Shown here in pieces: positions 20,744 to 46,139 of a stretch of 64,000 nucleotides of DNA. Positions within the stretch are counted from its first letter, which is position 1. Each line of letters begins with the position of its first letter. The stretch is taken from positions 29,493 to 93,492 of the IMG/VR virus record IMGVR_UViG_3300025892_000012; one strand, given 5' to 3'. Source of the stretch: a virus. The notes under the pieces were generated by a model. The model was not told the DNA's origin, ran no database searches, and saw only the letters and a program-made list of their open reading frames with translations. Both the position numbers and the translations under genes were made by a program.

Positions 20744-21022
20744 ATGGCAGCAGGAACACTAAGGTTAGCTAATGTAACAGTATTTGAAGCTAACACTACA
20801 AGTGGAAATATTAAAGTTCCTACAGGAACAACGCTAGAAGGTATCACCGATATTCTTGATTTGAGCTTAAATAGTGCTGCATTTTCAACTTCTACTAATA
20901 TTTTGTCATTGGGAAATTTTAGCGGAAATACAGTAACAGTTGATTTAAGTACATTGAGTGGTGGAGGAGGTGGCGGCGCATCACTAGGAGATGTCACTGC
21001 ATTAGCAATAGCACTCGGTTAA
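20744..21022 (+). CDS. Small connector: plug-like N-terminus, 'ALAIALG' C-terminus
   Basis: MAAGTLRLANVTVF resembles MAGTLKVGGVTLA (46139); poly-Gly linker; ends DVTALAIALG like 34079 (YSIALG). Confidence 0.6.
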   Translation: MAAGTLRLANVTVFEANTTSGNIKVPTGTTLEGITDILDLSLNSAAFSTSTNILSLGNFSGNTVTVDLSTLSGGGGGGASLGDVTALAIALG

Positions 21023-21051
21023 TTTTTTAAAAAAGTTAAAGAAATAAAAAA

Positions 21052-22473
21052 ATGGCAAAACAAACTATTAATAGAGGAATAGCACCAAATGATAACACAG
21101 GTGATACGCTAAGAGATGGTGCTGATAAAATAAATTCAAATTTTAATGATTTATACGAAAATTTGGGAGATGGGGATAATTTATCATTTAATGTACATAC
21201 GTATACTACTAGCACACAAAATCTAGAAAATAAAACATTAATTGCTGCTAACAATAATATAGTTATTAATGTAAACGAATTAAATGATGTTAGTATACCA
21301 ATTCCTGCAGTAGATTCTCAAATATTAGAATACAATGGAACTCTTAATCAGTGGGTAGTAGCAGACCGTGTGGGTAGACATTTAGTTCCGAGTTCTAATA
21401 ATACATTTGATTTAGGAAGTCCGAATTATCAATTTAAAGATTTATATCTAAGTGGGGAAACACTTTACTTGGGTGATATAAAATTATCTTCAAACAATGG
21501 AGAATTTAAAGTTGAATCACAAAGTAATCCATCTGCTGGAGGATTTAAGCTAAGTGGATTAATTGATGTATCTCCAACTGCACCAACAAATACTCAAGTA
21601 CTAACATGGAATGCTTCTGCAAATACATGGTATGCGGCAAATGCAGCCGGAGTTAGTGGTGTTGCTTCGTATTTAAATGGAAATTTAGATACTCATATTA
21701 TACCAGACACTAATGCCGCTTATGATATTGGTTCTGCAGAATACAAAATAAGACACTTATATCTTTCTGACAATTCATTATGGGTAGGAGATGATCATAA
21801 GATAAGTGTAGAAGAAGGTGAAATTAAATTTAAAAAGTTAAAAAGAACAGCACAACATGTACCCAAAGTAATTTTAGATGCTGCAATTGCGGAAGGCATT
21901 GGTGGTGATTTAGATTCAGTAGTTGCTCATGCTTTGAATTGGATGAATACACAATTAGATCCAAATGCAATTGACTTATCTGATGCTAGAATAAAAATTG
22001 AATTATGGTTTAAATACGCTATTCAAAACATTACTAACTTCATTGTTAATTTTCCTACACCAGGTGATTTATTCCCCAATGTAAATGATGCTAATTATGA
22101 TAATAATGACTATGAAGAAAATGTTAAACTAGGACAAAGTACGCATATATTTGATGTAACAAATGCCAATAATACTTCATATCTCTTTACAGACTTAGGA
22201 AATATATGGTTTCCAACATCAACACCTAATCCCACACTATATCTAAGAAGAGGTGAGATTTATAACTTTAGAATAAATGCAAGCGGTCATCCATTTAGAA
22301 TCCAAAATTCAAGTGTTGATAGTGATTTAGATGCTGTTGCTACTTCGGGTATAGTTGGTAATACAACAGAATCGGGCACACTTGTGTTTAAAGTACCTAT
22401 GGAAACACCTAGTACACTTTATTATCGGTGTACTGTGCATTCAGTCATGTCAGGAACTATAAACATTGTTTAA
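21052..22473 (+). CDS. Baseplate wedge / fibre-connector protein (T4 gp9/gp10-like N-terminus) with cupredoxin-like C-terminal domain
   Basis: MAKQTINRGIAPNDNTGDTLRDGADKINSNFNDLY matches the gp9/gp10 N-terminal motif; C-terminus GHPF...LYYRCTVHSVMSGTI. Confidence 0.75.
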   Translation: MAKQTINRGIAPNDNTGDTLRDGADKINSNFNDLYENLGDGDNLSFNVHTYTTSTQNLENKTLIAANNNIVINVNELNDVSIPIPAVDSQILEYNGTLNQWVVADRVGRHLVPSSNNTFDLGSPNYQFKDLYLSGETLYLGDIKLSSNNGEFKVESQSNPSAGGFKLSGLIDVSPTAPTNTQVLTWNASANTWYAANAAGVSGVASYLNGNLDTHIIPDTNAAYDIGSAEYKIRHLYLSDNSLWVGDDHKISVEEGEIKFKKLKRTAQHVPKVILDAAIAEGIGGDLDSVVAHALNWMNTQLDPNAIDLSDARIKIELWFKYAIQNITNFIVNFPTPGDLFPNVNDANYDNNDYEENVKLGQSTHIFDVTNANNTSYLFTDLGNIWFPTSTPNPTLYLRRGEIYNFRINASGHPFRIQNSSVDSDLDAVATSGIVGNTTESGTLVFKVPMETPSTLYYRCTVHSVMSGTINIV

Positions 22474-22482
22474 AAAAAGTAG

Positions 22483-22827
22483 ATGGCAAATATATTTAAA
22501 TTAAAAACAAAAGCTAATGTATCTAATTCAACGGCTGATACAATTTATACAGTTCCTGCAACTACAACAGCCGTTGCTATTGGATTAGTTTTAGCAAATA
22601 AGTCTACTCATGTAGTTACTGCAACCGTTGATTTAAATTCAACTACAAATGATAACGAATTAAATACAGCAGTCACTCTTTTTCATAACATAACAATTCC
22701 TGATAAAAGTACACTTGAGGTTTTTGGCGGACAAAAACTGATACTACAAACAACAGACCAAATTAAAATAACTAGTGATACACAAAATGGCTTAGATGTA
22801 GCCTTGAGTGTCTTAGAAATAAGTTAA
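22483..22827 (+). CDS. ~110-aa adaptor family protein (copy 1 of 3)
   Basis: YTVPATTTAVAIGLVLAN...IPDKSTLEVFGGQKLIL...LSVLEIS; paralog of 23747 and 36880. Confidence 0.75.
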   Translation: MANIFKLKTKANVSNSTADTIYTVPATTTAVAIGLVLANKSTHVVTATVDLNSTTNDNELNTAVTLFHNITIPDKSTLEVFGGQKLILQTTDQIKITSDTQNGLDVALSVLEIS

Positions 22828-22831
22828 ACTC

Positions 22832-23743
22832 ATGCCTACAAAAATACTAGAACTTGCAAATGATTTCTCTACATTATATAAGAAATATAATAATGAAATC
22901 GTACAACATGTTCTTGTGGAAAATTCAGTCATTGATGCCGGTTTAATTGGTAATAATCATGTATCTACTGCAAGTATTCAACTTGATAATACAATCATTA
23001 GAATTGGCACTTCTAGAGGTCTTTTAGATAATGACCTTCTCACCTATGATGCACTTCAATATAAATTTGTAAATAAAAGTTTAGCTGAATTTGGTTTTGT
23101 TGGCGCAGCCGACATAGCTAATAGCATAACTACAGATACTCTCACTGCAAACACAATCAGCGTTACTGGTGACTTAGTTGTTGCTGGTAATACAATTACA
23201 CTTGATACTCAAACATTACTAGTTGAAGATAACATTATTGTACTTGGTGCAAACAATAATACAAATCTTATAGATTTTGGTTTTGCCGGTCAATATAGTT
23301 ACGATAATGGAGCAACTACAAAATATGCAGGTATCTTTAGAGATGCAAGTATTGGAAAATTTTATTTGTTTGAAAACTATCCTCTAGAACCTCCCACATC
23401 TACAATGACGGGATTCAATCCCAGTTCAATGTCGGGAACATTAATACTTTCAAATCTAGAAGTTCTAGATGATATAACTTTAAACACTGCAGTAATAGCA
23501 TACAATGCGGCTAACGGAACATTAGATGTAAATGGAAATGCTCTTTCTTATGATGCTGGTTCAACTCTGGCTTCTTTATCGGATGTTAATACAACAGCTA
23601 ATGCCAATCAAGTTCTCACTGCTGATGGTGTAGGTAACTTCAATTTCAACACAGTAGATTACAATAATCTGATAAATAAACCAGACGCACAACTTGCGGC
23701 CTTAGCGGATGATGCATTCATAAATTCAATAATTTTTGGTTAA
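22832..23743 (+). CDS. Fibre segment ending in 'SIIFG'
   Basis: TLLVEDNIIVLG..YAGIFRDAS fibre motif; LSDVN..ANQVLTADG spacer; IALG-like C-terminus. Confidence 0.7.
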   Translation: MPTKILELANDFSTLYKKYNNEIVQHVLVENSVIDAGLIGNNHVSTASIQLDNTIIRIGTSRGLLDNDLLTYDALQYKFVNKSLAEFGFVGAADIANSITTDTLTANTISVTGDLVVAGNTITLDTQTLLVEDNIIVLGANNNTNLIDFGFAGQYSYDNGATTKYAGIFRDASIGKFYLFENYPLEPPTSTMTGFNPSSMSGTLILSNLEVLDDITLNTAVIAYNAANGTLDVNGNALSYDAGSTLASLSDVNTTANANQVLTADGVGNFNFNTVDYNNLINKPDAQLAALADDAFINSIIFG

Positions 23744-23746: not shown

Positions 23747-24091
23747 ATGGCGAATACACTTTTATCTAAAACTTATGATGGCGGAAATAATTATGTTACT
23801 GCCACAACAGATGTTAACATTTATACTGTGCCTACAAGTACAACTTCCATTTTAATTGGGTTTACAATATCAAATTTAACAACCGGTATCATAGCTTTGA
23901 GTGTTAAAATTTTAGATTCAGATGCGGCACAAACTGTACACTTTTTGAAAAATGTAGTCATTGATAGTGGCTCTACTCTTGAAATAATGGGGGGCAATAA
24001 AATTATTCTAAATGCTAGTGATGCAATACGTATGCAGTCCGATACACCAAATTCCTTTGATGTTGTACTATCACTAGTGGAACAGACATGA
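23747..24091 (+). CDS. ~110-aa adaptor family protein (copy 2)
   Basis: YTVPTSTTSILIGFTISN...GSTLEIMGGNKIIL...LSLVEQT. Confidence 0.75.
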   Translation: MANTLLSKTYDGGNNYVTATTDVNIYTVPTSTTSILIGFTISNLTTGIIALSVKILDSDAAQTVHFLKNVVIDSGSTLEIMGGNKIILNASDAIRMQSDTPNSFDVVLSLVEQT

Positions 24092-24342
24092 GCAAAGCTT
24101 TTAATATAGCTACAAATCTTGGAGCATATAAAAGTGCTTTTGATTCAAGTGGTAATATAAATGTACCAATGTATTCAAACCATGACACAACTGAAGATAT
24201 AACTGTAGTTGCAAATACTAATTCTTTAATGCCAGGACCTATTACAGCAAACAATGTAGCTGTAAGCGGACATTTAATTGTAATAAATGAATTTCATGTA
24301 ACTGGTAATATTACAGTTACTGGTTCTGTATCATTAATATAA
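24088..24342 (+). CDS. Socket connector (MSKA-type N-terminus)
   Basis: MSKAFNIAT...NTNSLMPGPITANNVAVSGHLIV...VTGSVSLI; ATGA overlap. Confidence 0.7.
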   Translation: MSKAFNIATNLGAYKSAFDSSGNINVPMYSNHDTTEDITVVANTNSLMPGPITANNVAVSGHLIVINEFHVTGNITVTGSVSLI

Positions 24343-24362: not shown

Positions 24363-24959
24363 ATGCCTACGTTTACACTAGGAGGAAAAACACTAGCAAC
24401 ACAAACAGGAAGTGCAGAGCCACAAATAGCAGATGCTGTAACATTTCCTGGAAAATCTGGAGCAATATTACAAACAAAAACTTATATAGATCCCACATCA
24501 TGGACTCAGGTACTTGACACTGATTTTGAAACGCTTGTAAATGGGTCTGGAGTTAAATTTGCTGTATCTATTACTCCTACTCTAACAGGGTCTAAAAATA
24601 TAGTAACAGTAACTTTTGGAACTTTTTATGCACACAATGCTCAAAATTATGCATTAGGAGTTAGATTGTGTAGAAATGGCACTCCAGTAAGATTAAGCAC
24701 AGCCACCGACAGTACACCTCTAGTAACTTTTAGTGCTAGTAGTTTATATGCAAACTATATGCCAGCATGTACTGCAGTTGTTCTTGATGAAACCTTGAAT
24801 ACTAAAGATGTATTAGTTGAGTACACTTTACAAATGCAAAGACATGCAATAAGTACATACACAATGGGTATGAATAAAACTGGAACCACAAGAACTGATA
24901 ATTCTGCCTATGGACAGCGTACATCCAGTCAAATTATGGCACAGGAGGTTGTGGTATGA
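24363..24959 (+). CDS. Receptor-binding tip, TFP(A)G family
   Basis: Plug MPTFTLGGKTLATQTG; VTFPG..GAILQ; ends QIMAQEVVV; GAGGAG RBS. Confidence 0.7.
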   Translation: MPTFTLGGKTLATQTGSAEPQIADAVTFPGKSGAILQTKTYIDPTSWTQVLDTDFETLVNGSGVKFAVSITPTLTGSKNIVTVTFGTFYAHNAQNYALGVRLCRNGTPVRLSTATDSTPLVTFSASSLYANYMPACTAVVLDETLNTKDVLVEYTLQMQRHAISTYTMGMNKTGTTRTDNSAYGQRTSSQIMAQEVVV

Positions 24960-25330
24960 TTACAATAACACAAGCAGTACAAGCACTAGGAGGAAAAAGT
25001 TTTAGTGTTGAAGAAGAAAATCCAAATAAAGTTTTTTTTAATAGAGGTAATCCATTAAACATAACAACTGCTCAAATAAAAGAAAAATTTGACGAATTAG
25101 TTGCAGAATTTAATCAGACAGAACCCATTAGATTACTAAGAGAACAAAGGGATAAATTACTTACAGAAACCGATTGGGTAACTGCAAAAGCAATAGAAAC
25201 AGAAGAACCAATACCTGCTGAATGGAAAACCTATAGACAAGCACTCAGAGATTTACCAGCTACTGCAGAACCACAACTAGATGAGTTTGGTAATTTAATT
25301 AATGTAACTTGGCCGGAGAAACCAGAGTGA
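24956..25330 (+). CDS. Phage tail assembly chaperone (LR..R..LL.ETDW...YRQALRDLP family)
   Basis: Family motif, ends WPEKPE; ATGA overlap. Confidence 0.85.
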   Translation: MITITQAVQALGGKSFSVEEENPNKVFFNRGNPLNITTAQIKEKFDELVAEFNQTEPIRLLREQRDKLLTETDWVTAKAIETEEPIPAEWKTYRQALRDLPATAEPQLDEFGNLINVTWPEKPE

Positions 25331-25599
25331 GTGGAACACTTAAATTAAACGATACACTATTTGCTACAGAAAATAGTGGAGATATAAGTGTAACTGCGCA
25401 TTTTACAGAAACTAATGTTGTACAAAACTCAAATGTTATAACACAGAGTTTGACGATAGCAAACAATAAAAATGCAACAATTTCAGGACCTGTATCTGTA
25501 AGTGGTTTAACAATCAATGGAAGTTTAAATGTAATGGGTAATTTAACAATTCCTACAACACAAAATTTAACAATTACAGGAAGATTAAGGATATTATAA
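25327..25599 (+). CDS. Plug-plus-socket 'extender' connector
   Basis: GTGA-coupled start gives MSGTLKLNDTLFATENSG (plug); ends NKNATISGPVSVSGLTINGSLNV...ITGRLRIL (socket). Confidence 0.7.
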   Translation: MSGTLKLNDTLFATENSGDISVTAHFTETNVVQNSNVITQSLTIANNKNATISGPVSVSGLTINGSLNVMGNLTIPTTQNLTITGRLRIL

Positions 25600-25600: not shown

Positions 25601-26194
25601 ATGGCAGATTTAATTTTAGGAAACACTACTGTAATGACAGAAAGTGGAGGTAATGTTACACTTGCTGATTTTTTTGAAGCTAAAATATTACAAATAGATT
25701 ATGGAATGCACAGTAGCACTTATTACGACAGTGGCCAGGGTACTGCATTTCCTGGAACCACTTTACCTGGAGAACTTGGTGATGGAAGTGTAAATTTAAC
25801 TCCTACCAGTTCCAGTAATTTTATAGAGATTTCGTATACAATGCATTGTGGACAACATGCCACATGGAATTTATTTTTCTTTAGAACATATTACAGTGTA
25901 GACGGAGGTAGTACTTATGCATATGTAACAGATACTGGAGGTGGAGCAATAGGTTATCATTCAGGTTGGAATGGCTCACCTTTTATAGCATCTGCCTGTG
26001 TGATTAAACCGGTGACTTTTTTTACTAGCACAAATCAAAATATAAAATTTCGAATGAATTCTTGTAAAGAAAGTAATTCAGCAACAGGATTAGCACTCAA
26101 CGTAAACACAAGTACTAATGATAGCTCAAAAACTACAAATTTTTCAGGTGCTTGTTCATCATTGATAGTAAAAGAATTAAAAGGACCATTATGA
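25601..26194 (+). CDS. Receptor-binding tip (TFPAG-related family)
   Basis: Plug MADLILGNTTVMTESGG; KILQ...LTPTSSSNFIEI...SSLIVKEL. Confidence 0.7.
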   Translation: MADLILGNTTVMTESGGNVTLADFFEAKILQIDYGMHSSTYYDSGQGTAFPGTTLPGELGDGSVNLTPTSSSNFIEISYTMHCGQHATWNLFFFRTYYSVDGGSTYAYVTDTGGGAIGYHSGWNGSPFIASACVIKPVTFFTSTNQNIKFRMNSCKESNSATGLALNVNTSTNDSSKTTNFSGACSSLIVKELKGPL

Positions 26195-26553
26195 CAGACA
26201 TTGTTAACGCTATAGAATCTTTAGTTGATAAAGCTAAATTCAGTATTGAAGATGGAGATTATGACAAAATTGTTTGGAAAGATGAAAGAACTATTCCCAC
26301 AAAAGCACAAATAGAAACAAAGATTACTGAATTAGAAGCTGAAGAACCTGTGCGAATTTTACGATTACACAGAGATAGATTATTACAAGAAACAGATTGG
26401 GTATCTGCTAGAAGTGTTGATTCAGGTACACCAGTGTCTCAAGAATGGGTTGCATATAGACAAGCACTTAGAGATTTGCCAGTTACAGCAGAACCACAAC
26501 TAGATGAAAATGGTAATTTGACAAATGTCACTTGGCCAGTAAAACCAGTATAA
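26191..26553 (+). CDS. Tail assembly chaperone
   Basis: LRLHRDRLLQETDW...YRQALRDLP...WPVKP; start moved to ATG 26191 (ATGA overlap). Confidence 0.85.
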   Translation: MTDIVNAIESLVDKAKFSIEDGDYDKIVWKDERTIPTKAQIETKITELEAEEPVRILRLHRDRLLQETDWVSARSVDSGTPVSQEWVAYRQALRDLPVTAEPQLDENGNLTNVTWPVKPV

Positions 26554-26563: not shown

Positions 26564-26839
26564 ATGGATTACACAATAACATTAACAGATACTGAAGACA
26601 AAGCACTGGCATATGCCGCTGCAAGTCAACAGGATTGGATTGATAACGTAGTTCACAATCGTTGTCGCATTGCAATTGATGACATTGTAAAACTTGCAAT
26701 AGACAAATTTATTGCTGCTGGTGAAAGCATGCCAGGAAATAAAGACCAAATTGTTGCAATTGCATTTGAAAGAGGTTGGGTCAAAACTGCAGCACAAAGA
26801 AATGAAGAAGCACAAGCCGAAATGGAGAAACAAGCATAA
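26564..26839 (+). CDS. Helical hypothetical protein, probable fibre-associated chaperone
   Basis: AAGGA RBS; QDWIDNVVHNRCRIAIDDIV...GWVKTAAQRN. Function inferred from context only. Confidence 0.55.
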   Translation: MDYTITLTDTEDKALAYAAASQQDWIDNVVHNRCRIAIDDIVKLAIDKFIAAGESMPGNKDQIVAIAFERGWVKTAAQRNEEAQAEMEKQA

Positions 26840-27324
26840 TGCCAGTTTTAGGAGCCGTAGCAAGACCTAATATCACTAGTTCATCAACAATCATAGATCA
26901 TAAAGAATATCTTGGTGGACATGCGGATATAATTTCAAATCCTGGCTATTATACTTTTTATGCACACTATACACCAGGAAATGTATCTGTCATAGTGCGT
27001 GGAATAAATATGGCGAGTAGTGACTATACGGCATCTAGTGGCAAAGATATTTTAATATCCACATCAGCAATAACATTAAACTCTGATGATATCATACAAA
27101 TTATCGGATATGGAACTAGCACTTCTGCCATATTAACCAAAAGCGATATGAACATCACTGGTGGACAGGCAATCAATCTAGAAAAAGTGGATAGTAAGAT
27201 TTATATGAATCGTAATCAGTATTCTGCAAATTTACATGTGCCCGCAGGATACAATGCATTCTTTGCTGGACCTATGAATTTTACAGGCACATTAACAATT
27301 GATGGCGTTTTAAACATAATTTAA
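26839..27324 (+). CDS. Socket connector with YIG-type N-terminus; paralog of the 55017 N-domain
   Basis: NPGYYTFY..Y.PGN.SV...SD.NITGG shared with 55017; ends YNAFFAGPMNFTGTLTIDGVLNII. Confidence 0.75.
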   Translation: MPVLGAVARPNITSSSTIIDHKEYLGGHADIISNPGYYTFYAHYTPGNVSVIVRGINMASSDYTASSGKDILISTSAITLNSDDIIQIIGYGTSTSAILTKSDMNITGGQAINLEKVDSKIYMNRNQYSANLHVPAGYNAFFAGPMNFTGTLTIDGVLNII

Positions 27325-27333: not shown

Positions 27334-27912
27334 ATGAGTGGAGTTATAAAACTAGGTTCAACAACATTTGGCACAGAGAACAATGGCAAGATAGATTTGA
27401 CCAATGTTGGTGAAATCGCTTACAATAATCATCCTGCATTTTTTGCATGGTTAAGTACTCTTCAAAATAACTTTACTGATCAAACATATGTCAAAGTTGC
27501 GTATAATTCCATAGATATAGACACTCACAATTCTTTTGATACTACTTCTTTTGTTGGTAGATATACTATACCTGATGGTTGTAGTGGAACTTATCAAATA
27601 AGTGCTAGAGTTACTGGATGGGCAGTAACAGATACAAACCTAAGAGATGACCACTTATATTTAAGAAAAAATGGTTCTAATTATGAAGGTGTGGCGAATA
27701 GATGGGCAGGAAATGATATAGCACACCATTCTAATGTGCTAACAACAATTATAGATTTAAATGCTGGAGATTATTTAGAGATTTATTGTTTTATGAATTC
27801 AGTAAATAGTGCTGATAATAGAGTTTTATCAAAAATGGGTGACTACAACTTAAATAGTGGTTGGGAGGAAATATCAAGATTAACAACTTTTAGTGGATAT
27901 CGTATAAGGTAA
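27334..27912 (+). CDS. Receptor-binding tip, C1q/TNF-like domain
   Basis: Plug; HPAFFA...FDTT..GRYTIP..GTYQISA...LNAGDYLEIY...FSGYRI. Confidence 0.7.
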   Translation: MSGVIKLGSTTFGTENNGKIDLTNVGEIAYNNHPAFFAWLSTLQNNFTDQTYVKVAYNSIDIDTHNSFDTTSFVGRYTIPDGCSGTYQISARVTGWAVTDTNLRDDHLYLRKNGSNYEGVANRWAGNDIAHHSNVLTTIIDLNAGDYLEIYCFMNSVNSADNRVLSKMGDYNLNSGWEEISRLTTFSGYRIR

Positions 27913-27919
27913 TTAACTT

Positions 27920-28489
27920 ATGGCATCAGAAATACAATTAGGCGGTAAAACAATATTCACGCAAGATGGTAACAACATGCCAGAAATGCATACGAATGTT
28001 GTAATACCCGAAGCAACAAAAACAGCATTAGGATTAAATGCTATACCAGCAGGAACAACAGCAGAAAGACCAGGTACTCCTGCAGTTGGTATGATTCGTT
28101 ACAACACAGATTTTAAATGTATTGAATACTATGATACTAATAGTCTATCTGGTTCAACTTGGCACAGTGTAGGGCCTTTTGTTACTGTAAAATTTAATGG
28201 CTTTAATGGTTCTGTCATGAATTGGTGGGGTAATTATTCAAGTATAACGAGAAATGCAACAGGACATTATACATTAACTTTTGCAACAGCAGTTGGTGAT
28301 TATATGTGGTATATTGATACCGATACAAATAATTCAAGGAGTGGTAATCACGTAATGGGACTAAGTGGTTTTGGTAGTTATTATTTTGTTTATAATTCAA
28401 CTTATTTTACATTTACAATAGGTGATATTATTACACCAGCACGGTCAGATGCCGATATAGTTTGGGTTTCTCTATGGAGTATATCATGA
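27920..28489 (+). CDS. Receptor-binding tip
   Basis: Plug MASEIQLGGKTIFTQDG; PAGTTAERP..GMIRYNT spacer; VKFNG..SSITRNATGHYTLTF domain. Confidence 0.7.
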   Translation: MASEIQLGGKTIFTQDGNNMPEMHTNVVIPEATKTALGLNAIPAGTTAERPGTPAVGMIRYNTDFKCIEYYDTNSLSGSTWHSVGPFVTVKFNGFNGSVMNWWGNYSSITRNATGHYTLTFATAVGDYMWYIDTDTNNSRSGNHVMGLSGFGSYYFVYNSTYFTFTIGDIITPARSDADIVWVSLWSIS

Positions 28490-28905
28490 ATAATTTAATA
28501 CTTTACACAAATGCAGAAGGTTCAGTCTCTAGCATTTGTATCAATGGTGCAGAAGACATCACAAAAGTCAGAAAGTATATATTAGACCATAGTTTAAATG
28601 ATGCTATTATTATAGATGAAGCCGCACTACCAGAAAAAAAATTAGAGTATTGCAAAATAGTAAATGGTGAGTTAATATCAGATGAAGAATATAAAACAAA
28701 TAAAGCCATGCAATTGTTGCGAGAAGAAAGAGAAAAGTTATTGATTCAATCTGATTGGCGTGACCTTCCTTCTTATCCAGGTACAGACCAAGAAGCATGG
28801 CGAACATATAGACAGGATCTAAGAGACATGACTGAATTAGAATCTCCTAAAATAGATCAATATGGTAATCTAATTGAAGTAGTCTGGCCAACACCACCGG
28901 AGTAA
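28486..28905 (+). CDS. Tail assembly chaperone
   Basis: LREEREKLLIQSDW...YRQDLRDM...WPTPPE; ATG 28486 overlaps upstream stop. Confidence 0.8.
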   Translation: MNNLILYTNAEGSVSSICINGAEDITKVRKYILDHSLNDAIIIDEAALPEKKLEYCKIVNGELISDEEYKTNKAMQLLREEREKLLIQSDWRDLPSYPGTDQEAWRTYRQDLRDMTELESPKIDQYGNLIEVVWPTPPE

Positions 28906-28906: not shown

Positions 28907-29137
28907 ATGGGAAACATTTCAATCATCAAAGGTTTTGATTCAGAAGGAATCAGACCAAGCAACGAAATAGTTGTAGACAAGAATGTAGTAGCTGAAGAAG
29001 GTTATTCACAATTGTTAATTGGTCCTGTTACTGTTCCCAATGTTACTGTAAATGGTAATCTAAACGTGATGACTGAAATAAATATTACTGGAGACTTAAC
29101 AATTGGTGAGAACGGTCAACTCAACATCATCGGATAA
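28907..29137 (+). CDS. Socket connector
   Basis: YSQLLIGPVTVPNVTVNGNLNV...GENGQLNIIG; close paralog of 32799. Confidence 0.7.
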   Translation: MGNISIIKGFDSEGIRPSNEIVVDKNVVAEEGYSQLLIGPVTVPNVTVNGNLNVMTEINITGDLTIGENGQLNIIG

Positions 29138-29667: not shown

Positions 29668-29674
29668 GAAACTA

Positions 29675-37456: not shown

Positions 37457-38110
37457 ATGCCTGACATAAACATAAACGGTTATCCATTTATATCTCAATC
37501 TGGAACGAATGTACCTGAAATTGACAATGTTAAAATAGGTGCAAGTGTTGATACTGTTTCCAATACAGGTGCAGGATATAAACCAGCAGAAGTTTGGCTT
37601 TCTACAACTGAAATTTCAGCACAAGATACTGTCATAAATCTACCATCTGGTTATAAAAAGTATCATGTTATTGGACATAATGTATTTTGGGGTGGAACGG
37701 CCTCAACTGGTGATATTAGAATGTACATGCGTTATAACAACAATACACAAGATGATACTGGTTTACAAATGAGTGAATGGTATAAAAGATTAGATGCTGC
37801 GGGATATGGGCAAGAAGTATGGGATGGTTTTGTTGTTATTTCAAATAATATGGGAACAGACCCAACAGAAAATTCTTTTTTTGATATTTGGTTAAATGGT
37901 TGTAATGAGGCCAATAAAACCAGGGGATATACAGGATATGGTATGTCCACTTATGGTCATACCTCAGACCAACATGCATACCATTATACTATTGGTTTTA
38001 GATCACAATTAACAGATGCTATAGATGGTTTTAGAATATATTTTCATCCCGATGATAATGCTATTACTTCTTATGGTGGCACAATAGTTGTAACAGGATA
38101 TACTTTTTAG
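37457..38110 (+). CDS. Receptor-binding tip (distinct fold)
   Basis: Plug MPDININGYPFISQSG; LPSGYKKY...IDGFRIYF...GGTIVVTGY. Confidence 0.7.
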   Translation: MPDININGYPFISQSGTNVPEIDNVKIGASVDTVSNTGAGYKPAEVWLSTTEISAQDTVINLPSGYKKYHVIGHNVFWGGTASTGDIRMYMRYNNNTQDDTGLQMSEWYKRLDAAGYGQEVWDGFVVISNNMGTDPTENSFFDIWLNGCNEANKTRGYTGYGMSTYGHTSDQHAYHYTIGFRSQLTDAIDGFRIYFHPDDNAITSYGGTIVVTGYTF

Positions 38111-38123
38111 GATTTAACATAAC

Positions 38124-38726
38124 ATGCCTGAACTTAAAATAAACGGTTACACATTTGCAACTCAAGCTGACGGCAACAATCCTGTGCTGGCGAGTAATGT
38201 TGATTTAGGTAGTGCTACGTTTCCTGCTGGGCATGTTCTACAGGTAAAAGGTGTAATTAGGAATACAGAATGGCAAGGACCAGATACAGTAAATGATAAT
38301 CATACGCTTTTTACAACTGACACTTTCACAACTACTGCACATACCAATACTGCATTTAAAGTAGAAATTACTCCAGCATCAAATGCTTCTAAATTTCTTG
38401 TTCAATATGCAATTAATATTGGTAACACAAGTACCGGCATAAGTTTAAAATTGCATCGTGGTAATGCTACATCACCAATTTATGGTTCTAGTGGTAGTAG
38501 AACACCACAGAATTCTGGCAAAGAATGGACAGGAGATAATAATCAATCGTCTCAAACTTACTATTCTATACTAGATGAACCTGCAACTGATAGCACATTA
38601 ACCTATTATCTTACTTATGTTTATTTTGGGGTTAAGCCTTGGTTTAACACAAATGTAAGCAGAAATGGTGCGGCGTATGATGATGCGTATACATCCACTC
38701 TTATTGTTATGGAGATATCAGGATGA
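38124..38726 (+). CDS. Receptor-binding tip, TFPAGH family
   Basis: MPELKINGYTFATQ...SATFPAGHVLQV...ITPASNASKFLV...LIVMEISG. Confidence 0.75.
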   Translation: MPELKINGYTFATQADGNNPVLASNVDLGSATFPAGHVLQVKGVIRNTEWQGPDTVNDNHTLFTTDTFTTTAHTNTAFKVEITPASNASKFLVQYAINIGNTSTGISLKLHRGNATSPIYGSSGSRTPQNSGKEWTGDNNQSSQTYYSILDEPATDSTLTYYLTYVYFGVKPWFNTNVSRNGAAYDDAYTSTLIVMEISG

Positions 38727-39100
38727 CCGACTTTAGGAATCAAGCAATCTATGCATTATCTCCGGATGGAGATTGGATGTGGGACGATGGTAATCTCATT
38801 TGGTGTAGCCCAAATGTTGCTCAACCAACACAAGCAGAAATAGATGCTAAATTAGCAGAACTAGAAGCAGCCGAACCACTACGCCTATTAAGAATAGAAC
38901 GCAACCGATTACTACAAGAAACAGATTGGGAAATTACTAGAGGATTAGAAGAAGGATTAAATATAGATAGTTTAAAAACATATAGAACAGCACTTAGAAA
39001 CTTACCACAACAAATAGAAGCTGGAGAAATAACAGCACCTACTTTGAATGACAATGGTATGTTAGTGTTTGAACATTGGCCGGAAAGAACAGATGCCTGA
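38723..39100 (+). CDS. Tail assembly chaperone
   Basis: AEPLRLLRIERNRLLQETDW...YRTALRNLP...FEHWP. Confidence 0.85.
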   Translation: MTDFRNQAIYALSPDGDWMWDDGNLIWCSPNVAQPTQAEIDAKLAELEAAEPLRLLRIERNRLLQETDWEITRGLEEGLNIDSLKTYRTALRNLPQQIEAGEITAPTLNDNGMLVFEHWPERTDA

Positions 39101-39695
39101 AATAAGAATTAATAATAAAGTATTAGTAACACAAACTGGAGCGGCTGAGCCTGTATTGGCGAGTAATGTTAATTTAGGTAGTGCTACGTTTCCTGCTGGG
39201 CATATTATTCAGACAGTACAACATGTATTTACTGGAACTGCATCTATTAGTTCAGTATCTACTGATAGTTTTGCATCATTTAATATTCCGTTTAGTAAAG
39301 GAATTACTCCATTTCTAAGTTCATCAAAAATTTTGGTGAGCGTTAATATAAGTTTAGGACATGATGCAGGTTCAATTCATACTGCAATATACAGAGATGG
39401 AACTAAACTCACAGGAGCAGCAGGTGACGTAGCAGGAAATAGGTTTGGTAGTACCACTCTTTCTAGATATGCAAATCCTGCATATGGTTTTGGTTGTAAT
39501 TCAATGAGTTTTAATTATTTAGATTCACCAACAATACCTACCACACCTATAGAAATTGTTTATGAAATAAAAGCAACTCTTGGTGCAAGTTATAATGATG
39601 GTATATATTTGAATCATAGTGCGAGTGACAGTACTAATATGGATTACACACCAAGAACAGCATCTTTTATGACATTATTTGAGATAGCACAATGA
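39093..39695 (+). CDS. Receptor-binding tip, TFPAGH family
   Basis: Start ATG 39093: MPEIRINNKVLVTQTG...SATFPAGHIIQ...MTLFEIAQ. Confidence 0.75.
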   Translation: MPEIRINNKVLVTQTGAAEPVLASNVNLGSATFPAGHIIQTVQHVFTGTASISSVSTDSFASFNIPFSKGITPFLSSSKILVSVNISLGHDAGSIHTAIYRDGTKLTGAAGDVAGNRFGSTTLSRYANPAYGFGCNSMSFNYLDSPTIPTTPIEIVYEIKATLGASYNDGIYLNHSASDSTNMDYTPRTASFMTLFEIAQ

Positions 39696-40054
39696 ATTAT
39701 CTAGCAAAAGCATTGGGGGAATTAAGACCACAAGAAGGCATGATTTATAATTCAGAATTACCACCAATTGCAAGTAAAATAATTTATGATTCTGAATCAA
39801 CTGTTAAAATTACACAAGAAGAATTAGATAACAAAATACAAGAAATTAAAGATAGGCAACCACTACGCCTGCTAAGAATAGAACGTGATCGATTGCTACA
39901 AGAAACAGATTGGCGTTTTCGTTCAGACCTAACACCATCTCAAGCATGGATTGACTATTGCCAAGCATTGAGAGATTTACCTGCAAACAGTGAACCACAA
40001 TTGAATGAGAATGGAGAATTGACAAACGTAACATGGCCGGAGAAACCTGAATGA
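39692..40054 (+). CDS. Tail assembly chaperone
   Basis: QPLRLLRIERDRLLQETDW...YCQALRDLP...WPEKPE. Confidence 0.85.
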   Translation: MNYLAKALGELRPQEGMIYNSELPPIASKIIYDSESTVKITQEELDNKIQEIKDRQPLRLLRIERDRLLQETDWRFRSDLTPSQAWIDYCQALRDLPANSEPQLNENGELTNVTWPEKPE

Positions 40055-40806
40055 GCGGAACGATTACATTGGGTGGGAAGACATTAGCAAGTCATAGTAA
40101 TGATACGGATAAATTAAGTCTAAGCGGAGATGTAGGAATACCTAGCGGTACTACATCAAACAGACCAGTATCTCCTTCCATTGGAACAAGTTATTACAAT
40201 ACAGAATTAAATGCTGTAGAGATGTATGTTGGACAATCACAATGGTTAACAGTTCAATACAGATATAAATGGATGTATCCTAGAGATAGTAATATTAATA
40301 ATGGAATAATATCACCTGATGGTCAGAAGTGGTGGGGGAATGGTCAAGTTGCAAGTTCATATGGAGGTGTGATTTTGAATAGAGTATTTCCTGGAGATTT
40401 TACAGTAGTTGCATCTTGGCAACAAGATTTTCGTGGTGCGGGTATGGTATATAGAGATAGTGCTAGTTTAGACGATTTCACTGGTGATGGAGGCAATGGA
40501 CCTTATTGGGGAGCAATAGGACAATCTGGATTTAGTCCTGCTTCTCCTGCATATAGTATATTATCTCAATATTATGCTCCTATAACAGGAGACACCAGTA
40601 ATACATTCTATTATTTTAAATGGCAAAGAAGTGGAAACACATTAACCTTACAGTATAGTGCGACATCAGCAACTGGTCCTTGGACAAATTTTAATACTAA
40701 TTATACGGCTACTTGTGCAACAAGTAATGAAGTAATTATAGGTGCAGGTGAAGCAAACGTCGGAGAAGTAAAACCATTAACACTAATAAGTGTAACAGAA
40801 GGATAG
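40051..40806 (+). CDS. Receptor-binding tip (lectin-like, distinct fold)
   Basis: Plug MSGTITLGGKTLASH; PSGTTSNRP..YYNTEL spacer; aromatic-rich beta domain. Confidence 0.65.
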   Translation: MSGTITLGGKTLASHSNDTDKLSLSGDVGIPSGTTSNRPVSPSIGTSYYNTELNAVEMYVGQSQWLTVQYRYKWMYPRDSNINNGIISPDGQKWWGNGQVASSYGGVILNRVFPGDFTVVASWQQDFRGAGMVYRDSASLDDFTGDGGNGPYWGAIGQSGFSPASPAYSILSQYYAPITGDTSNTFYYFKWQRSGNTLTLQYSATSATGPWTNFNTNYTATCATSNEVIIGAGEANVGEVKPLTLISVTEG

Positions 40807-40810
40807 ATTA

Positions 40811-41830
40811 ATGCCAGGAACTCTTAAAGTTGGTGGAAACATAATAGCAAGTCACACAGGTGTAGAAGGTGCGGGAACTGTTACGCTAGGGAATGTTGTG
40901 CTGGGTGATTCAGCGGTTCCTACAAATAATTACACGTTCCGCAACAAGATTATCAACGGTGGAATGCAGATTGACCAAAGAAATGCTGGCGCAAGCGTAG
41001 GTCCATTTGCATCCGCGAGTGCAGGATACAAAGGTGTAGATAGATGGTTTATAGCTAGCGATCCTATGACTTCACAACAGATAACAGGAAATACACCTAC
41101 AGGATTTTCCCATTATTTAAAACTTACTAAAGGATCAGGAAGTAATATTGATATTCGTCAAACTGTAGAATTGCCTGCTGCAGGTCAAGCAGGACAATTT
41201 GGTGTTGGTTCTGTTTGGACTTTAAGTTTTTATGCTAAGTCAGTAGCTGGTGGTGAAACTTTAAATTTTAGTAGTTATTTTCGTCTTGGAGTTGCAACAG
41301 GCACTTTTACTGCTGTTTCAGCACCTACACCAAGTAGTATTACATTAACAACAAATTGGACAAGATACTCAGTACTTTTTACAATTGATGTATCTCCAGG
41401 TGCAAGTGATTTATGTATAGCATTCGGATTAAACACTACAGCAACAGAGTTGCATTTAACTGGAGTCCAGCTTGAAGAAGGACCTGTTGCCACTCCATTT
41501 GAGCATCGTTCGATTGGGGTGGAGCTAAAGTTGTGTAAAAGATATTATGCAACTGGAAGAGTTTCTGGATTGCTTGCTTATGCTGGTGGCAGACAATCTG
41601 CTTTTACAGATGTTAATTTTGAAGTTGAAATGAGAGCAGTCCCAACTGCTTATGTCACACATGATGGAACAACAGGAACAATTAGAGACAATAATAGTGC
41701 AGTCACATATAGTGGCTGGACAACAATAGGGGGTACAAATAAATATGTCGCAGTTAGAAATGGCAATGCTAGTGTGGGCGCCCCAAGTCACCATTTTAGT
41801 ACAACTTATTTTGCAGATGCGGAATTATGA
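40811..41830 (+). CDS. Fibre, FRNKIING...QLEEG...LC.RYY family (carbohydrate-binding-module-like middle domain)
   Basis: Plug MPGTLKVGG; FRNKIINGGMQIDQRNAG; TLSFYAK; GVQLEEGPVATPFEHR; ends ADAEL. Confidence 0.75.
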   Translation: MPGTLKVGGNIIASHTGVEGAGTVTLGNVVLGDSAVPTNNYTFRNKIINGGMQIDQRNAGASVGPFASASAGYKGVDRWFIASDPMTSQQITGNTPTGFSHYLKLTKGSGSNIDIRQTVELPAAGQAGQFGVGSVWTLSFYAKSVAGGETLNFSSYFRLGVATGTFTAVSAPTPSSITLTTNWTRYSVLFTIDVSPGASDLCIAFGLNTTATELHLTGVQLEEGPVATPFEHRSIGVELKLCKRYYATGRVSGLLAYAGGRQSAFTDVNFEVEMRAVPTAYVTHDGTTGTIRDNNSAVTYSGWTTIGGTNKYVAVRNGNASVGAPSHHFSTTYFADAEL

Positions 41831-45432: not shown

Positions 45433-45437
45433 ATTAA
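44805..45437 (+). CDS. Phage tail collar domain fibre
   Basis: PIGTILNYA..APLGWLICDGSAISRT...; QGHYH motif. Confidence 0.9.
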   Translation: MASKAKIFSRFINNLDVVNDQIIINTVTIDDSSITNTNMGANIQIGGSDLSSTLLSAAPIGTILNYAAETAPLGWLICDGSAISRTTYVNLFTAISTAWGIGDGSSTFNLPNLQGAFLRGTGTGTINARNKTAVAVGSFQEDQFQGHYHRVRTYAGTATYRISRRADNGPTVAFYDSEVLQPTPDGTNGNPRYSDQTNPYNASVQFCIKY

Positions 45438-45444
45438 AGGTAAA

Positions 45445-45873
45445 ATGATAGCATATAATATACATAACGCAAATCAAGTTCCAAGGCAAGAATCTCCATT
45501 GGAGCCTGGAGTATGGTTAATGCCAGGACAATGCACTGATGTGGAGCCACCAGAATTTAATCAAGAAACACACACATGTAAATTCAATGGAGCCGAATGG
45601 ATTGTTGAATTAATTCCTGTTAAAGAAGAAGAGCCAACTCCAGAACCAATTCCAGCAATGGAATTATTAAGAATGGAAAGAGATTCTAAATTAGCACAAT
45701 CTGATTGGAGAGTCAACACTGATTATCCATATGATGACCAAGAAGCTTGGAAAACATATAGAGAGGAACTAAGACAACTTCCTCAACAAATAGAAACTGG
45801 TGTTATACCTGCTCCTACATTAGATGAAAATTATCAATTAGTTTTTGATAATTGGCCTGTTGAACCATCATAA
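45445..45873 (+). CDS. Tail fibre assembly protein (Tfa-like N-domain plus chaperone C-domain)
   Basis: ESPLEPGVWLMPGQCTDVEPP...FNGAEW; LRMERDSKLAQSDW...YREELRQLP. Confidence 0.8.
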   Translation: MIAYNIHNANQVPRQESPLEPGVWLMPGQCTDVEPPEFNQETHTCKFNGAEWIVELIPVKEEEPTPEPIPAMELLRMERDSKLAQSDWRVNTDYPYDDQEAWKTYREELRQLPQQIETGVIPAPTLDENYQLVFDNWPVEPS

Positions 45874-45876
45874 ATA
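45870..45876 (+). promoter_or_regulatory. Probable T4-like late promoter ATAAATA
   Basis: Opens an AT-rich intergenic gap ~35 bp before socket gene 45912. Confidence 0.5.
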
Positions 45877-45911
45877 TTGTATATAATATAAAACTTTCTT
45901 AACCAAAATAT

Positions 45912-46139
45912 ATGAGTACAGCAGAAGATTTAGCAACCTTTGCATCCGTTGGTGTCCTAACACATGATAGTTCTTTTGGATATAATCATGTAGTTGAAGC
46001 AAACACTAATGCATTGCTTATTGGACCAATAACACTACCTGGTATCATAAACGTACAAGAAAATGCAGCACTCACTGTATTTGGTGAAGTCTCTGTTACT
46101 GGTAGTTTAACTGTTGATGGCAACTTGGATATACGATAA
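45912..46139 (+). CDS. Socket connector
   Basis: MSTAEDLATFAS...NTNALLIGPITLPG...LTVDGNLDIR. Confidence 0.7.
   Translation: MSTAEDLATFASVGVLTHDSSFGYNHVVEANTNALLIGPITLPGIINVQENAALTVFGEVSVTGSLTVDGNLDIR

What the first reader, a model, noticed from the sequence alone, without database searches (positions are those of the whole stretch)
20744..46139. Mini-genes that convert one connector type into another imply a multi-level fibre tree
Recurrent N-termini: plug; (Y/F/V)(I/L)G (26839, 34079, 37176, 50528, 55017, 56676); M(S/T)(K/R)A(R)-type helix (24088, 42060, 44183, 44805, 49222, likely 45912, 48047); Mtd-N type. Recurrent C-termini: socket; IALG/IIFG; DIEAYG. Several 75-95 aa ORFs are little more than one of each: 25327 plug->socket (extender), 20744 plug->IALG, 37176 YLG->socket, 24088 and 45912 helix->socket. 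Pure adaptors make sense if the connectors are orthogonal and chained into a branching or extendable structure.
Basis: inference. Interest (0 to 1): 0.75.

Follow-up and report, generated by a model that had tools for sequence, protein, structure and literature searches.

The report
Mini adaptor genes joining phage fibre tips
A marine T4-like phage encodes tiny, conserved adaptor proteins, each an N-terminal anchor peptide plus a small beta-helix "socket", that most likely attach about 20 separately encoded, swappable receptor-binding tips to the virion; the joint is unannotated yet widespread, but a branching fibre "tree" is not shown.

Summary
The window is the host-recognition cluster of a T4-like marine myovirus (IMG/VR fragment).

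**What is there**
- Ten proteins end in a homologous C-terminal "socket". Six are 74-92 aa mini-genes.
- 18 ORF starts carry a ~20-aa "plug" that occurs nowhere else in the six-frame translation. Five more carry a second plug type.
- There are 13 Phage_tail_APC-type chaperones.

**Evidence that the minis are real genes and adaptors**
- dN/dS is 0.12-0.23.
- The socket family has 1,893 clusters in metagenomes. The socket is C-terminal in 107 of 112 short hits.
- A plug gene follows a socket gene in 30 of 45 cases, against 54 of 517 for other genes.
- Anchor peptides are shared between mini-sockets and whole fibres.
- Melnitz gene _179 fuses an anchor directly to a tip body.
- A near-identical contig has one tip body replaced exactly after the plug.
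- Models give a bactofilin-like beta-solenoid for the mini and a TNF/C1q-like head for a tip.

**What fails or stays open**
- DIEAYG occurs only once.
- The plug of 20744 fails a leave-out test.
- Only 25327 is a supported plug-to-socket extender. Chains are plausible; branching is unproven.

The concept (adaptor plus docking peptide) is known from T4, K1-5, G7C and KP32. This joint family is not annotated. Other first-reader notes of this scan cover the same genome.

The parts
20744..21022 (+). 92-aa mini ORF. It has an IALG-type C-terminus behind a poly-Gly linker. Its N-terminus is only loosely plug-like.
   Evidence: C-terminus. Homologues of 79-90% identity and 93-115 aa. Leave-out plug profile gives 3.0 bits, which is background.
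24088..24342 (+). 84-aa mini adaptor: helix-type anchor peptide plus long socket.
   Evidence: BLASTP to the other minis. A1. The same 22-aa N-terminus heads a 351-aa socket-less fibre in L009.
24363..25330 (+). Plug-bearing tip (24363-24959) and its Phage_tail_APC chaperone (24956-25330).
   Evidence: Plug profile. PF16778 E 2.5e-16, above the cut-off.
25327..25599 (+). 90-aa mini with a plug at the N-terminus and a long socket at the C-terminus (GTG start overlapping the chaperone stop). Candidate extender.
   Evidence: Start and N-terminus. Socket. Leave-out plug profile 12.7 bits, E 0.003. Database relatives P0004, P0033 and P0093 share this architecture.
25601..26553 (+). Plug tip (25601-26194) and chaperone (26191-26553).
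26839..27324 (+). 161-aa base protein: (V)LG-type N-terminal domain plus short socket.
   Evidence: 47% identity to the 55017 N-terminal domain, and socket matches. A1.
27334..28905 (+). Two plug tips (27334, 27920) and a chaperone (28486-28905).
28907..29137 (+). 76-aa mini adaptor with a long socket.
   Evidence: 86% conserved in L009-L012, while the downstream tips keep only the plug. dN/dS 0.12-0.14. AF2 pLDDT 84, beta-solenoid.
29143..32799 (+). Five plug tips (29143, 29675, 30641, 31225, 31787) and two chaperones (30267, 32365).
   Evidence: The body of tip 30641 (30695-31224) is replaced in L008, with breakpoints after codon 18 and at the next start codon.
32799..33023 (+). 74-aa mini adaptor with a long socket.
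   Evidence: 72-78% conserved in L009-L011. dN/dS 0.20-0.23. Always followed by an M(P/S)NASLTIDGTEVI tip.
33025..34079 (+). Glycine-rich plug tip (33025-33747) and chaperone (33744-34079).
   Evidence: PF21722..
34079..37179 (+). 930-aa fibre (FIG start, IALG end) and a 99-aa member of the 99-114-aa family.
   Evidence: The ESM Atlas labels look-alikes of family member 22483 virion structural / CARDB-like.
37176..37454 (+). 92-aa mini: YLG-type start plus a divergent long socket (GD in place of GP).
   Evidence: Its homologue P0040 (157 aa) keeps both ends with a longer middle.
37457..41830 (+). Five plug tips (37457, 38124, 39093, 40051, 40811) and two chaperones (38723, 39692).
   Evidence: The model of 38124 is TNF/C1q-like.
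45912..46139 (+). 75-aa mini: loose helix-type start plus a long socket ending DIR.
   Evidence: DIR/DVR-type sockets are followed by VGG..LA.H plugs in all five cases seen.
46139..48050 (+). Two tips (46139, 47101), each with a chaperone (46743, 47664).
50528..53534 (+). 371-aa YIG protein ending in a short socket, then two type-2 plug tips, each with a chaperone.
56676..61269 (+). 214-aa FIG protein ending in a short socket, then a 1313-aa fibre with a type-2 plug.
   Evidence: The same pair occurs in L010 with a 304-aa partner.
63381..63999 (+). 179-aa Mtd_N-like protein ending in a short socket, then the start of a type-2 plug gene (63922).

Best explanation
**Setting.** The region is the host-recognition cluster of a T4-like marine myovirus. 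It builds its receptor-binding appendages from separately encoded parts.

**The three parts.**
- Base proteins have an N-terminal anchor of one of several types: MSKA/MTRA helix, (Y/F)IG, Mtd_N, gp9/10-N or plug. An optional shaft follows, then a C-terminal socket of about 45-65 aa that is modelled as a small beta-solenoid.
- Tips have a ~20-aa N-terminal beta-strand plug followed by a head. The head is TNF/C1q-like, glycine-rich or of another kind.
- Most tips are followed by a Phage_tail_APC chaperone.

**The mini-genes.** The 74-92-aa mini-genes are the minimal base proteins: an anchor peptide plus a socket. They convert a virion docking site into a generic acceptor for exchangeable tips.

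**What is shown.**
- The families are homologous, and each motif sits at its expected end of the protein.
- The minis are under purifying selection.
- Sockets and plugs are linked in gene order.
- Anchors and tip bodies are portable between proteins.
- A tip was swapped in nature while its plug was kept.

**What is inferred.**
- The plug binds the open C-terminal end of the socket non-covalently, perhaps by adding strands to the beta-helix.
- N-termini point toward the virion and C-termini away from it, as in T4 gp34-37.
- 25327 (plug plus socket) can insert a third level.
- The excess of tips (about 21) over sockets (10) means either alternative occupancy or multivalent sockets.
For: **Homology and positions**
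- Socket homology.
- Plug found only at ORF starts.
- Chaperones PF16778 and tail-fibre-assembly PHROGs.

**Real and widespread**
- dN/dS 0.12-0.23.
- 1,893 clusters at 50% identity match the socket profile, 48 of them at E<=1e-10.
- The socket lies within 3 aa of the C-terminus in 107 of 112 hits of 300 aa or less.
- The family is present in the cultured phages Melnitz (_193, followed by tips _194 and _195 and assembly gene _196) and P-TIM68 (gp031).

**Linkage of socket and plug**
- A plug gene follows a socket gene in 42 of 61 cases, against 70 of 659 for other genes. After removing duplicates this is 30 of 45 against 54 of 517, OR 17, p 7e-17.
- In five related phages, a given socket type keeps its own first-tip plug while the tip body differs.

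**Portable modules**
- L009 has a 351-aa fibre with the 24088 anchor.
- P0026 carries the 48047 anchor on a mini-socket.
- Melnitz _179 is an anchor plus tip body in one chain.
- L008 is 99.9-100% identical to the window except for one tip body, replaced from codon 19 up to the next start codon.

**Models**
- Mini 28907: pLDDT 84, residues 21-76 above 90, N-terminal 20 residues disordered.
- Its best structural neighbours are bactofilin (Z 5.0, rmsd 2.8 A over 62 residues) and other beta-helices.
- Tip 38124 resembles the Pgp3 TNF-like domain (E 5e-5), C1q, BclA and lambda gpJ.
- 53524 has a C1q domain.

**Protein-level conservation.** Sockets are not among the DNA repeats, which are mostly chaperone genes.
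Against: - No experiment and no multimer model shows the plug bound to the socket. Only monomer folds could be run.
- The socket 3' end and the plug 5' end are contiguous DNA, so their co-conservation and subtype matching could be linkage alone.
- The socket is modelled as a single-chain solenoid, whereas TNF/C1q-like tips are expected to be trimers. The stoichiometry is therefore unresolved, and the monomer model may mislead.
- Fold matches for the mini are weak: Z 5 at best, and no Foldseek hit at E<=0.001.
- 15 of 45 socket genes are not followed by a gene that my plug profiles recognise. Several of these look plug-like by eye. In L010 a 26839-type socket is followed by a helix-type gene.
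- There are no expression or virion-proteome data for this phage.
- No longer, fused form of 28907 was found, but that search gives only weak evidence.
Confidence: 0.65

Rival explanations
1. A flat, two-level architecture with no tree. Every plug protein, 25327 included, simply competes for socket sites on base proteins that sit directly on the baseplate. Virions carry a mixture of tips, with no branching and no orthogonal wiring beyond two or three socket/plug subtypes.
For: - Only one window gene (25327) passes as plug-to-socket, and 20744 fails.
- In 57 chaperone-anchored loci, none of the 49 distinct socket proteins had a plug N-terminus by profile.
- Socket proteins range from 69 to 741 aa and mostly carry baseplate- or fibre-type anchors: YIG, Mtd_N, gp9/10-N-like.
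Against: - Plug-to-socket proteins recur in the database: P0004, P0033 and P0093 by profile, and many type-2-like starts by eye.
- In L009 the whole block 24088-26553, which is two cassettes including 25327, is replaced by one fibre with the same anchor. That fits both cassettes hanging from one site.
Confidence: 0.3
2. The recurrent termini are mainly nucleotide-level features: recombination anchors and translational-coupling signals at gene junctions. On this reading the mini-proteins have another role, for example assembly factors that are absent from the virion.
For: - The conserved tip C-terminus M-E-I is encoded by ATGGAGAT, and the chaperone C-terminus W-P-E-K-P-E by TGGCCGGAGAAACC. Both place GGAG just upstream of the next start codon.
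- The DNA repeats are chaperone genes, short plug-coding stretches and TFPAGH-coding stretches.
- Tip swaps break exactly at gene junctions.
- T4 gp38 and gp57A are fibre genes whose products are absent from the virion (PMC9603124).
Against: - Sockets are conserved as protein, not as DNA. They are absent from the repeat families and have dN/dS 0.12-0.23.
- No Shine-Dalgarno-like motif lies in the socket ends.
- The socket folds as a confident domain.
- A separate chaperone family already follows the tips.
- Anchor peptides shared with complete fibres imply a structural position.
Confidence: 0.12
3. The mini ORFs are remnants: 5' fragments of fibre genes left by cassette shuffling, or split pseudogenes.
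For: - The locus is highly mosaic.
- The minis share N-termini with longer fibres.
Against: - Purifying selection acts on them.
- A conserved stop position and C-terminal motif recur across hundreds of clusters, 72 of the top 150 being 115 aa or shorter.
- The domain is modelled with confidence.
- They lie in tight operons with overlapping start and stop codons.
Confidence: 0.03

Closest known systems
T4 long tail fibre chain gp34-gp35-gp36-gp37 with chaperones gp38 and gp57A (review PMC9603124)
   Same: - The fibre is built from separately encoded pieces joined end to end.
- The C-terminus of a small proximal piece (gp36, 221 aa) binds the N-terminus of the distal receptor-binding piece (gp37).
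- Gene order runs from proximal to distal and ends with a chaperone.
- The phage lineage is T4-like.
   Different: - No sequence similarity to gp35 or gp36 was seen.
- The base pieces here can be as small as 74 aa.
- There are at least 10 of them in one genome, and each is followed by one to five alternative tips.
- The tips are small TNF/C1q-like heads of 170-250 aa rather than a 1026-aa fibre.
- The chaperones belong to the Phage_tail_APC family.
Adapter and anchor-branch receptor-binding systems: K1-5/SP6 gp37 adapter, G7C gp66/gp63.1, Klebsiella KP32/KP34, Menlow and PhiK64-1 groups (PMC6872550; PMC13352976)
   Same: - A small adapter, or the first receptor-binding protein, provides the docking site.
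- Further receptor-binding proteins carry a short conserved N-terminal peptide (7-29 aa) and a variable body.
- The parts are modular and exchangeable.
   Different: - In those systems the docking site is a T4gp10-like domain. No such domain was detected in the minis.
- Here the acceptor is a C-terminal beta-solenoid-like module with no Pfam family and no PDB relative by sequence.
- Those tips are depolymerase tailspikes, and those phages carry 2-11 receptor-binding proteins. This phage carries about 21 tips.
Host recognition cluster (HRC) of pelagimyophages and cyanomyophages (PMC7029224)
   Same: It is the same kind of large hypervariable island inside the structural module of marine T4-like phages, of about 34-45 kb.
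   Different: That paper reports the island and says tail-fibre proteins could not be identified. The base/socket, plug/tip and chaperone grammar is not described there.
Bactofilin and other single-chain beta-helices (structural neighbours only)
   Same: The mini model superposes on Thermus bactofilin (Z 5.0, rmsd 2.8 A, 62 residues). From my own knowledge, bactofilins polymerise through their beta-helix ends, which makes an end-on joint plausible.
   Different: The Pfam Bactofilin score is 17 bits against a cut-off of 27.9. No homology is claimed, and the match is in the range of common arrangements.

Membership tests
Phage_tail_APC (PF16778) tail-fibre assembly chaperones | Score above the Pfam gathering cut-off. 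| tested here: met
   24956 scores 59.7 bits against a cut-off of 26.6. It matches tail-fibre-assembly PHROGs. Twelve paralogues match it by BLASTP at E 1e-8 to 1e-38.
Adapter with T4gp10-like branching domain (K1-5 gp37 / G7C gp66 type) | Presence of a T4gp10-like domain as the docking site. | tested here: not met
   No gp10-type Pfam hit in any mini. Only 21052 has T4_gp9_10_N, and it is not a mini.
Adapter with T4gp10-like branching domain (K1-5 gp37 / G7C gp66 type) | Secondary receptor-binding proteins carry a short conserved N-terminal docking peptide with a variable body. | tested here: met
   Plug peptide at 19 ORF starts. Only the N-terminal ~20% is conserved at 68-88% in database relatives of 38124. 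The tip body was swapped behind the plug.
T4 gp36-like fibre connector | Sequence homology to gp36. | tested here: inconclusive
   No Pfam or PHROG fibre-connector family matched the minis. No direct comparison with the gp36 sequence was run.
T4 gp36-like fibre connector | The C-terminus binds the N-terminus of the distal fibre protein within the virion. | not testable with these tools
   Only monomer structure prediction was available. Gene order and co-conservation are compatible with it.
Bactofilin (PF04519) | Score above the gathering cut-off. | tested here: not met
   25309 scores 17 bits against a cut-off of 27.9.
Bactofilin (PF04519) | Bactofilin-like beta-helical fold. | tested here: inconclusive
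   Best VIA-align match is 6ria_A: Z 5.0, rmsd 2.8 A, 62 aligned. That is below the level at which a fold match is reliable.
C1q/TNF-like trimeric heads (tips) | C1q Pfam domain or a TNF-like jelly-roll fold. | tested here: met
   53524 matches PF00386 at 61.5 bits against a cut-off of 23.7. The 38124 model matches the Pgp3 TNF-like domain at E 5e-5, then C1q, BclA and adiponectin. Model pLDDT is only 72.
Mtd_N (PF18454) | Score above the gathering cut-off. | tested here: met
   54307 scores 32.3 bits against a cut-off of 26.3. 63381 scores only 17.6 bits, below the cut-off.

The most novel reading that the evidence does not exclude
The socket/plug pair is a widespread, so far undescribed non-covalent joint of marine phage fibres, with a subtype specificity code.
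- Short ...TW/LT(V/I)V sockets would take S-I-(I/L)-K-x-D plugs.
- ...DIR sockets would take VGG..LA.H plugs.
- ...NIIG sockets would take MGNL.LNGQTVL plugs.

Plug-to-socket minis would let cassettes be stacked. One virion, or a population of virions, would then display a combinatorial and hierarchical set of about 20 different TNF-like tips from about 10 docking sites.
Probability: 0.3. Interest if true: 0.8.

Novelty: new variant of a known kind. Interest (0 to 1): 0.62.

Why it matters
**Ecology.** Marine T4-like phages of streamlined bacteria carry 35-45 kb host-recognition islands whose fibre genes could not be annotated (PMC7029224). A simple grammar parses most of this island. It also parses hypothetical genes in two cultured phages, Melnitz and P-TIM68. 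The grammar is a base protein ending in a socket, then one or more tips starting with a plug, then a chaperone.

**Mechanism.** If the joint is physical, it explains how these phages exchange receptor-binding heads one at a time, as seen directly. It would also explain how a single virion could carry many specificities.

**Tool value.** It would offer a very small (about 55 aa plus 20 aa) natural plug-and-socket pair for modular protein display.

**Testability.** The idea can be tested in cultivable, harmless marine phage-host systems.

Tried and rejected
**Searches that found nothing**
- tblastn of 24363, 56676 and 28907, and megablast of 20 kb, against 50,697 phage records. Profile searches were needed instead.
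- The socket profile against PDB sequences gave only chance-level beta-helix hits.
- Foldseek of the mini model against PDB and BFVD gave nothing at E<=0.001. The BFVD lead 'virion structural protein, P-TIM68' was followed up, and gp031 does end in a socket. I could not verify the proteomic basis of that name.
- A search for longer, fused forms of 28907 found none; this is weak evidence.
- P0033 gave no viral-contig relatives.

- One call was wasted on a query that was too short, and one on a word-count limit.

**Readings rejected**
- Mini ORFs as gene fragments (dN/dS, conservation).
- Sockets as recent gene-conversion repeats (absent from the DNA repeat families).
- Minis plus tips as one gene joined by frameshift or readthrough. 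I did not test this directly. It is judged unlikely because the stop, the C-terminal motif and the downstream Met-plug start are conserved across hundreds of clusters.

**Limit of the co-variation argument.** Socket-plug co-variation cannot prove binding, because the two motifs are adjacent on the DNA.

Full report
**Context**

The window is bases 29493-93492 of a 93.5-kb IMG/VR virus record estimated at 52% complete. Upstream lie T4-type sheath, tube, portal and capsid genes. The major capsid protein is about 55% identical to those of cyanomyophages and of the OM43 phage Melnitz, all Kyanoviridae.

From about 20 to 64 kb, one tightly packed plus-strand operon encodes some 70 proteins. Gaps between genes run from -11 to +44 nt, with one 243-nt gap before 63381. 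The position and content match the hypervariable 'host recognition cluster' described for pelagimyophages and cyanomyophages, whose fibre genes that paper could not identify (PMC7029224).

**Check of the observation**

*Socket.*
- All-against-all BLASTP shows that the small ORFs 24088, 25327, 28907, 32799, 45912 and 37176 are paralogues of each other. They also match the C-termini of 26839, 50528, 56676 and 63381 (E 1e-4 to 6e-18).
- The alignment (A1) gives a core of N(A/S)xxxGP(V/I)(T/S), followed by short beta-strand repeats.
- There is a short form ending about ...TLTVV, and a long form with some 20 extra residues.

*Plug.*
- A profile of the ~25 N-terminal residues of the small tip proteins hits 19 ORF starts at 18-34 bits. 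Nothing else in the six-frame translation scores above 4.7 bits.
- A second plug type, S-I-(I/L)-K-x-D, heads 51644, 52591, 57328, 63922 and, more loosely, 47101.

*Other end types.*
- Mtd_N is confirmed for 54307 and is sub-threshold for 63381.
- IALG/IIFG ends occur three times, all at the extreme C-terminus.

*Two details fail.*
- DIEAYG occurs once only.
- When 20744 and 25327 are left out of the plug profile, 25327 still scores 12.7 bits (E 0.003). 20744 drops to background at 3.0 bits.

**Are the mini-ORFs genes?**

Yes.
- Against relatives at 72-87% identity, 28907 and 32799 have dN/dS of 0.12-0.23 at dS of about 0.8-0.9.
- 20744 has 79-90% identical homologues that differ mainly in the length of a poly-Gly linker.
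- The socket profile finds 1,893 clusters (50% identity representatives) among 1.84 billion proteins, 48 of them at E<=1e-10.
- 72 of the best 150 hits are 115 aa or shorter.
- Among hits of 300 aa or less, the socket ends within three residues of the C-terminus in 107 of 112.
- Sockets are not among the DNA repeat families of the locus, which are mostly chaperone genes. So their similarity is maintained at the protein level.

**What the parts look like**

- AlphaFold2 with a 56-sequence alignment models 28907 with mean pLDDT 84. Residues 21-76 form a stack of short strands at pLDDT above 90. Residues 1-20 have low confidence.
- Foldseek finds nothing significant in PDB or BFVD.
- The exhaustive aligner puts bactofilin first (Z 5.0, rmsd 2.8 A, 62 residues). 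It is followed by autotransporter and adhesin beta-helices and by left-handed beta-helix acyltransferases. The mini is therefore most simply a flexible anchor peptide plus a small beta-solenoid. The match is weak, and a monomer model may misrepresent an oligomer.
- The tip 38124 (pLDDT 72) has N-terminal strands and a jelly-roll head. The head is most similar to the TNF-like domain of chlamydial Pgp3 (E 5e-5), then to lambda gpJ, C1q, BclA and adiponectin.
- 53524 has a bona fide C1q domain, and 33025 a glycine-rich domain.
- The ~120-aa genes after the tips are Phage_tail_APC chaperones.

**Evidence that sockets and plugs belong together**

1. *Gene order.*
   - Every one of the ten window sockets is followed directly by a plug gene.
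   - In 63 IMG/VR loci, 57 of them fetched through a chaperone and not through a socket, a socket gene is followed by a plug gene in 42 of 61 cases. Other genes are followed by one in 70 of 659 cases.
   - After removing duplicates the figures are 30 of 45 against 54 of 517, odds ratio 17, p 7e-17. These cases are not phylogenetically independent.
   - Several of the misses are plug-like by eye.
2. *Conservation pattern.*
   - In L009-L012 the 28907-type mini is 86% conserved, and the next gene always starts MGNL(V/T)LNGQTVL. Its body differs, at 171-219 aa and 30-40% identity or none.
   - The same holds for the 32799-type and 56676-type sockets.
   - Database relatives of tip 38124 include several that share only the first ~20% at 68-88% identity.
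3. *A natural swap.* Contig L008 is 99.86-100% identical to the window across 28525-30694 and 31225-33758. The body of tip 30641 between these blocks is replaced by unrelated sequence. The left breakpoint lies after codon 18, at the end of the plug. The right breakpoint is the next gene's start codon.
4. *Other lineages.* Unrelated small contigs (L013, L014, L017) carry MTRAV-type mini-sockets of 77-83 aa, each followed by a MAELILGSTTA- or MADLILGSTTA-type tip. In L013 and L014 this pattern repeats.

**Evidence that the N-termini are portable anchors**

- In L009 the gene after the 23747 homologue starts with the same 22 residues as 24088. It continues as a 351-aa fibre with no socket.
- That single gene replaces the whole window block 24088-26553: mini, tip, chaperone, plug-socket mini, tip, chaperone.
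- P0026 (83 aa) joins the first 19 residues of the 322-aa fibre 48047 to a socket.
- P0040 keeps both ends of 37176 around a longer middle.
- In Melnitz, gene _179 (272 aa) fuses an MPFIG anchor domain directly to a tip body, from the FPAG motif to the ...IMEIAV end. It has no socket and no plug.
- Melnitz _193 (115 aa) ends in a socket. It is followed by two tips and a fibre-assembly gene, and all of _193 to _195 are annotated hypothetical.
- P-TIM68 gp031 (131 aa, MSKA start) also ends in a socket.
- HTVC008M lacks both sockets and this tip family. S-CAM9 lacks the tip family and gave only a weak socket-profile match inside a 610-aa ORF.

These comparisons say that socket plus plug stand where other phages have a covalent link.

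**Most likely mechanism**

Base proteins attach by their N-terminal anchor to the baseplate or to another fibre. This polarity is inferred from T4 gp34-37 (PMC9603124). The C-terminal socket receives the plug of a chaperone-folded tip. The mini-genes are the shortest base proteins in a continuum from 69 to 741 aa.

Strand addition to the open end of the solenoid is a plausible mode of binding, but it is an inference.

**How far does the 'multi-level tree' hold?**

- 25327 is a supported plug-to-socket protein.
- The architecture recurs in the database: P0004, P0033 and P0093 by profile, and many type-2-like starts by eye.
- The L009 replacement fits both cassettes hanging from one anchor.
- Against this, none of the 49 distinct socket proteins in the chaperone-anchored loci had a plug by profile, and 20744 fails.
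- Nothing bears on branching, nor on whether the about 21 tips share the 10 sockets by competition or through multivalent sites.
- Subtype matching is consistent: short sockets with type-2 plugs in 5 of 5 cases, and DIR sockets with VGG..LA.H plugs in 5 of 5. But it is confounded by the motifs being contiguous DNA.

**Comparison with the known**

- The logic of a small adapter or first receptor-binding protein providing a docking site, with further proteins carrying a short conserved N-terminal peptide, is established for K1-5/SP6, G7C and Klebsiella phages (PMC6872550; PMC13352976). End-to-end joints are established in the T4 long fibre.
- What differs is the acceptor. Here it is a C-terminal solenoid-like module rather than a T4gp10-like domain, and it has no Pfam or PHROG family and no PDB relative by sequence.
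- The minimal size, the number of tips and the TNF-like heads also differ.

I therefore class it as a new variant of a known kind.

**Limits**

- Only monomer folds were possible.
- No expression or proteome data exist for this phage.

Noticed in passing
window 32350-32368, 38708-38726, 47649-47664; 25302-25326, 34051-34075, 40026-40050: The conserved tip C-terminus ...M-E-I-x-G is encoded by ATGGAGAT, and the conserved chaperone C-terminus W-P-E-K-P-E by TGGCCGGAGAAACC. Both put a GGAG Shine-Dalgarno-like motif just upstream of the overlapping start of the next gene. Part of this terminal 'protein' conservation may therefore be a translational-coupling constraint.
   Followed up: partly
window 30695-31224 versus L008 2171-2666: A contig from another sample is 99.9-100% identical on both sides, but the body of one tip gene is replaced. 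The breakpoints fall after codon 18 (the end of the plug) and at the next start codon. This is a clean single-cassette swap.
   Followed up: yes
window 22483-22827, 23747-24091, 36880-37179: A 99-114-aa family (27-37% identical to each other). Two of the three members follow an IALG/IIFG-ending fibre; 22483 instead follows the gp9/10-like protein 21052. Each precedes a helix- or YLG-type gene. ESM Atlas look-alikes of 22483 are named 'virion structural protein' and 'CARDB domain'. PHROG 26609 and 1276 have unknown function. The role is not resolved.
   Followed up: partly
window 41827-42063, 49019-49225, 50265-50483, 56493-56672: Four small acidic proteins end in Y-(Q/I)-E-Y-L-A-W-L-A-E-G-N-E-P-E-P-like tails, and each follows a 'FRNKIING' fibre. 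The same motif is in P-TIM68 gp029. A gene at the same position in Melnitz (_178) is annotated tail assembly chaperone. This is probably a second chaperone family.
   Followed up: partly
window 44183-45437: Twin tail-collar (PF07484) genes are 46% identical overall and share a 225-nt block at 86% identity.
   Followed up: no
window 54109-54264: A 51-aa ORF with a strongly hydrophobic C-terminal half sits inside the fibre array. It may be a membrane peptide or a spurious ORF.
   Followed up: no
window 20744-21022: The identical protein (P0169) is on record from 74 contigs, the longest 271,561 bases. This phage type is common in public assemblies, and longer assemblies of it may exist.
   Followed up: no
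L023 (Melnitz MZ577097) 11471-11686: A 71-aa gene annotated 'tail fiber' ends in ...FAIALG and lies directly before the neck genes. The IALG-type C-terminus therefore also occurs on a mini-gene in a cultured phage.
   Followed up: no
window 61284-63137: A 617-aa protein with SPRY and DUF7483 domains lies between fibre cassettes.
   Followed up: no
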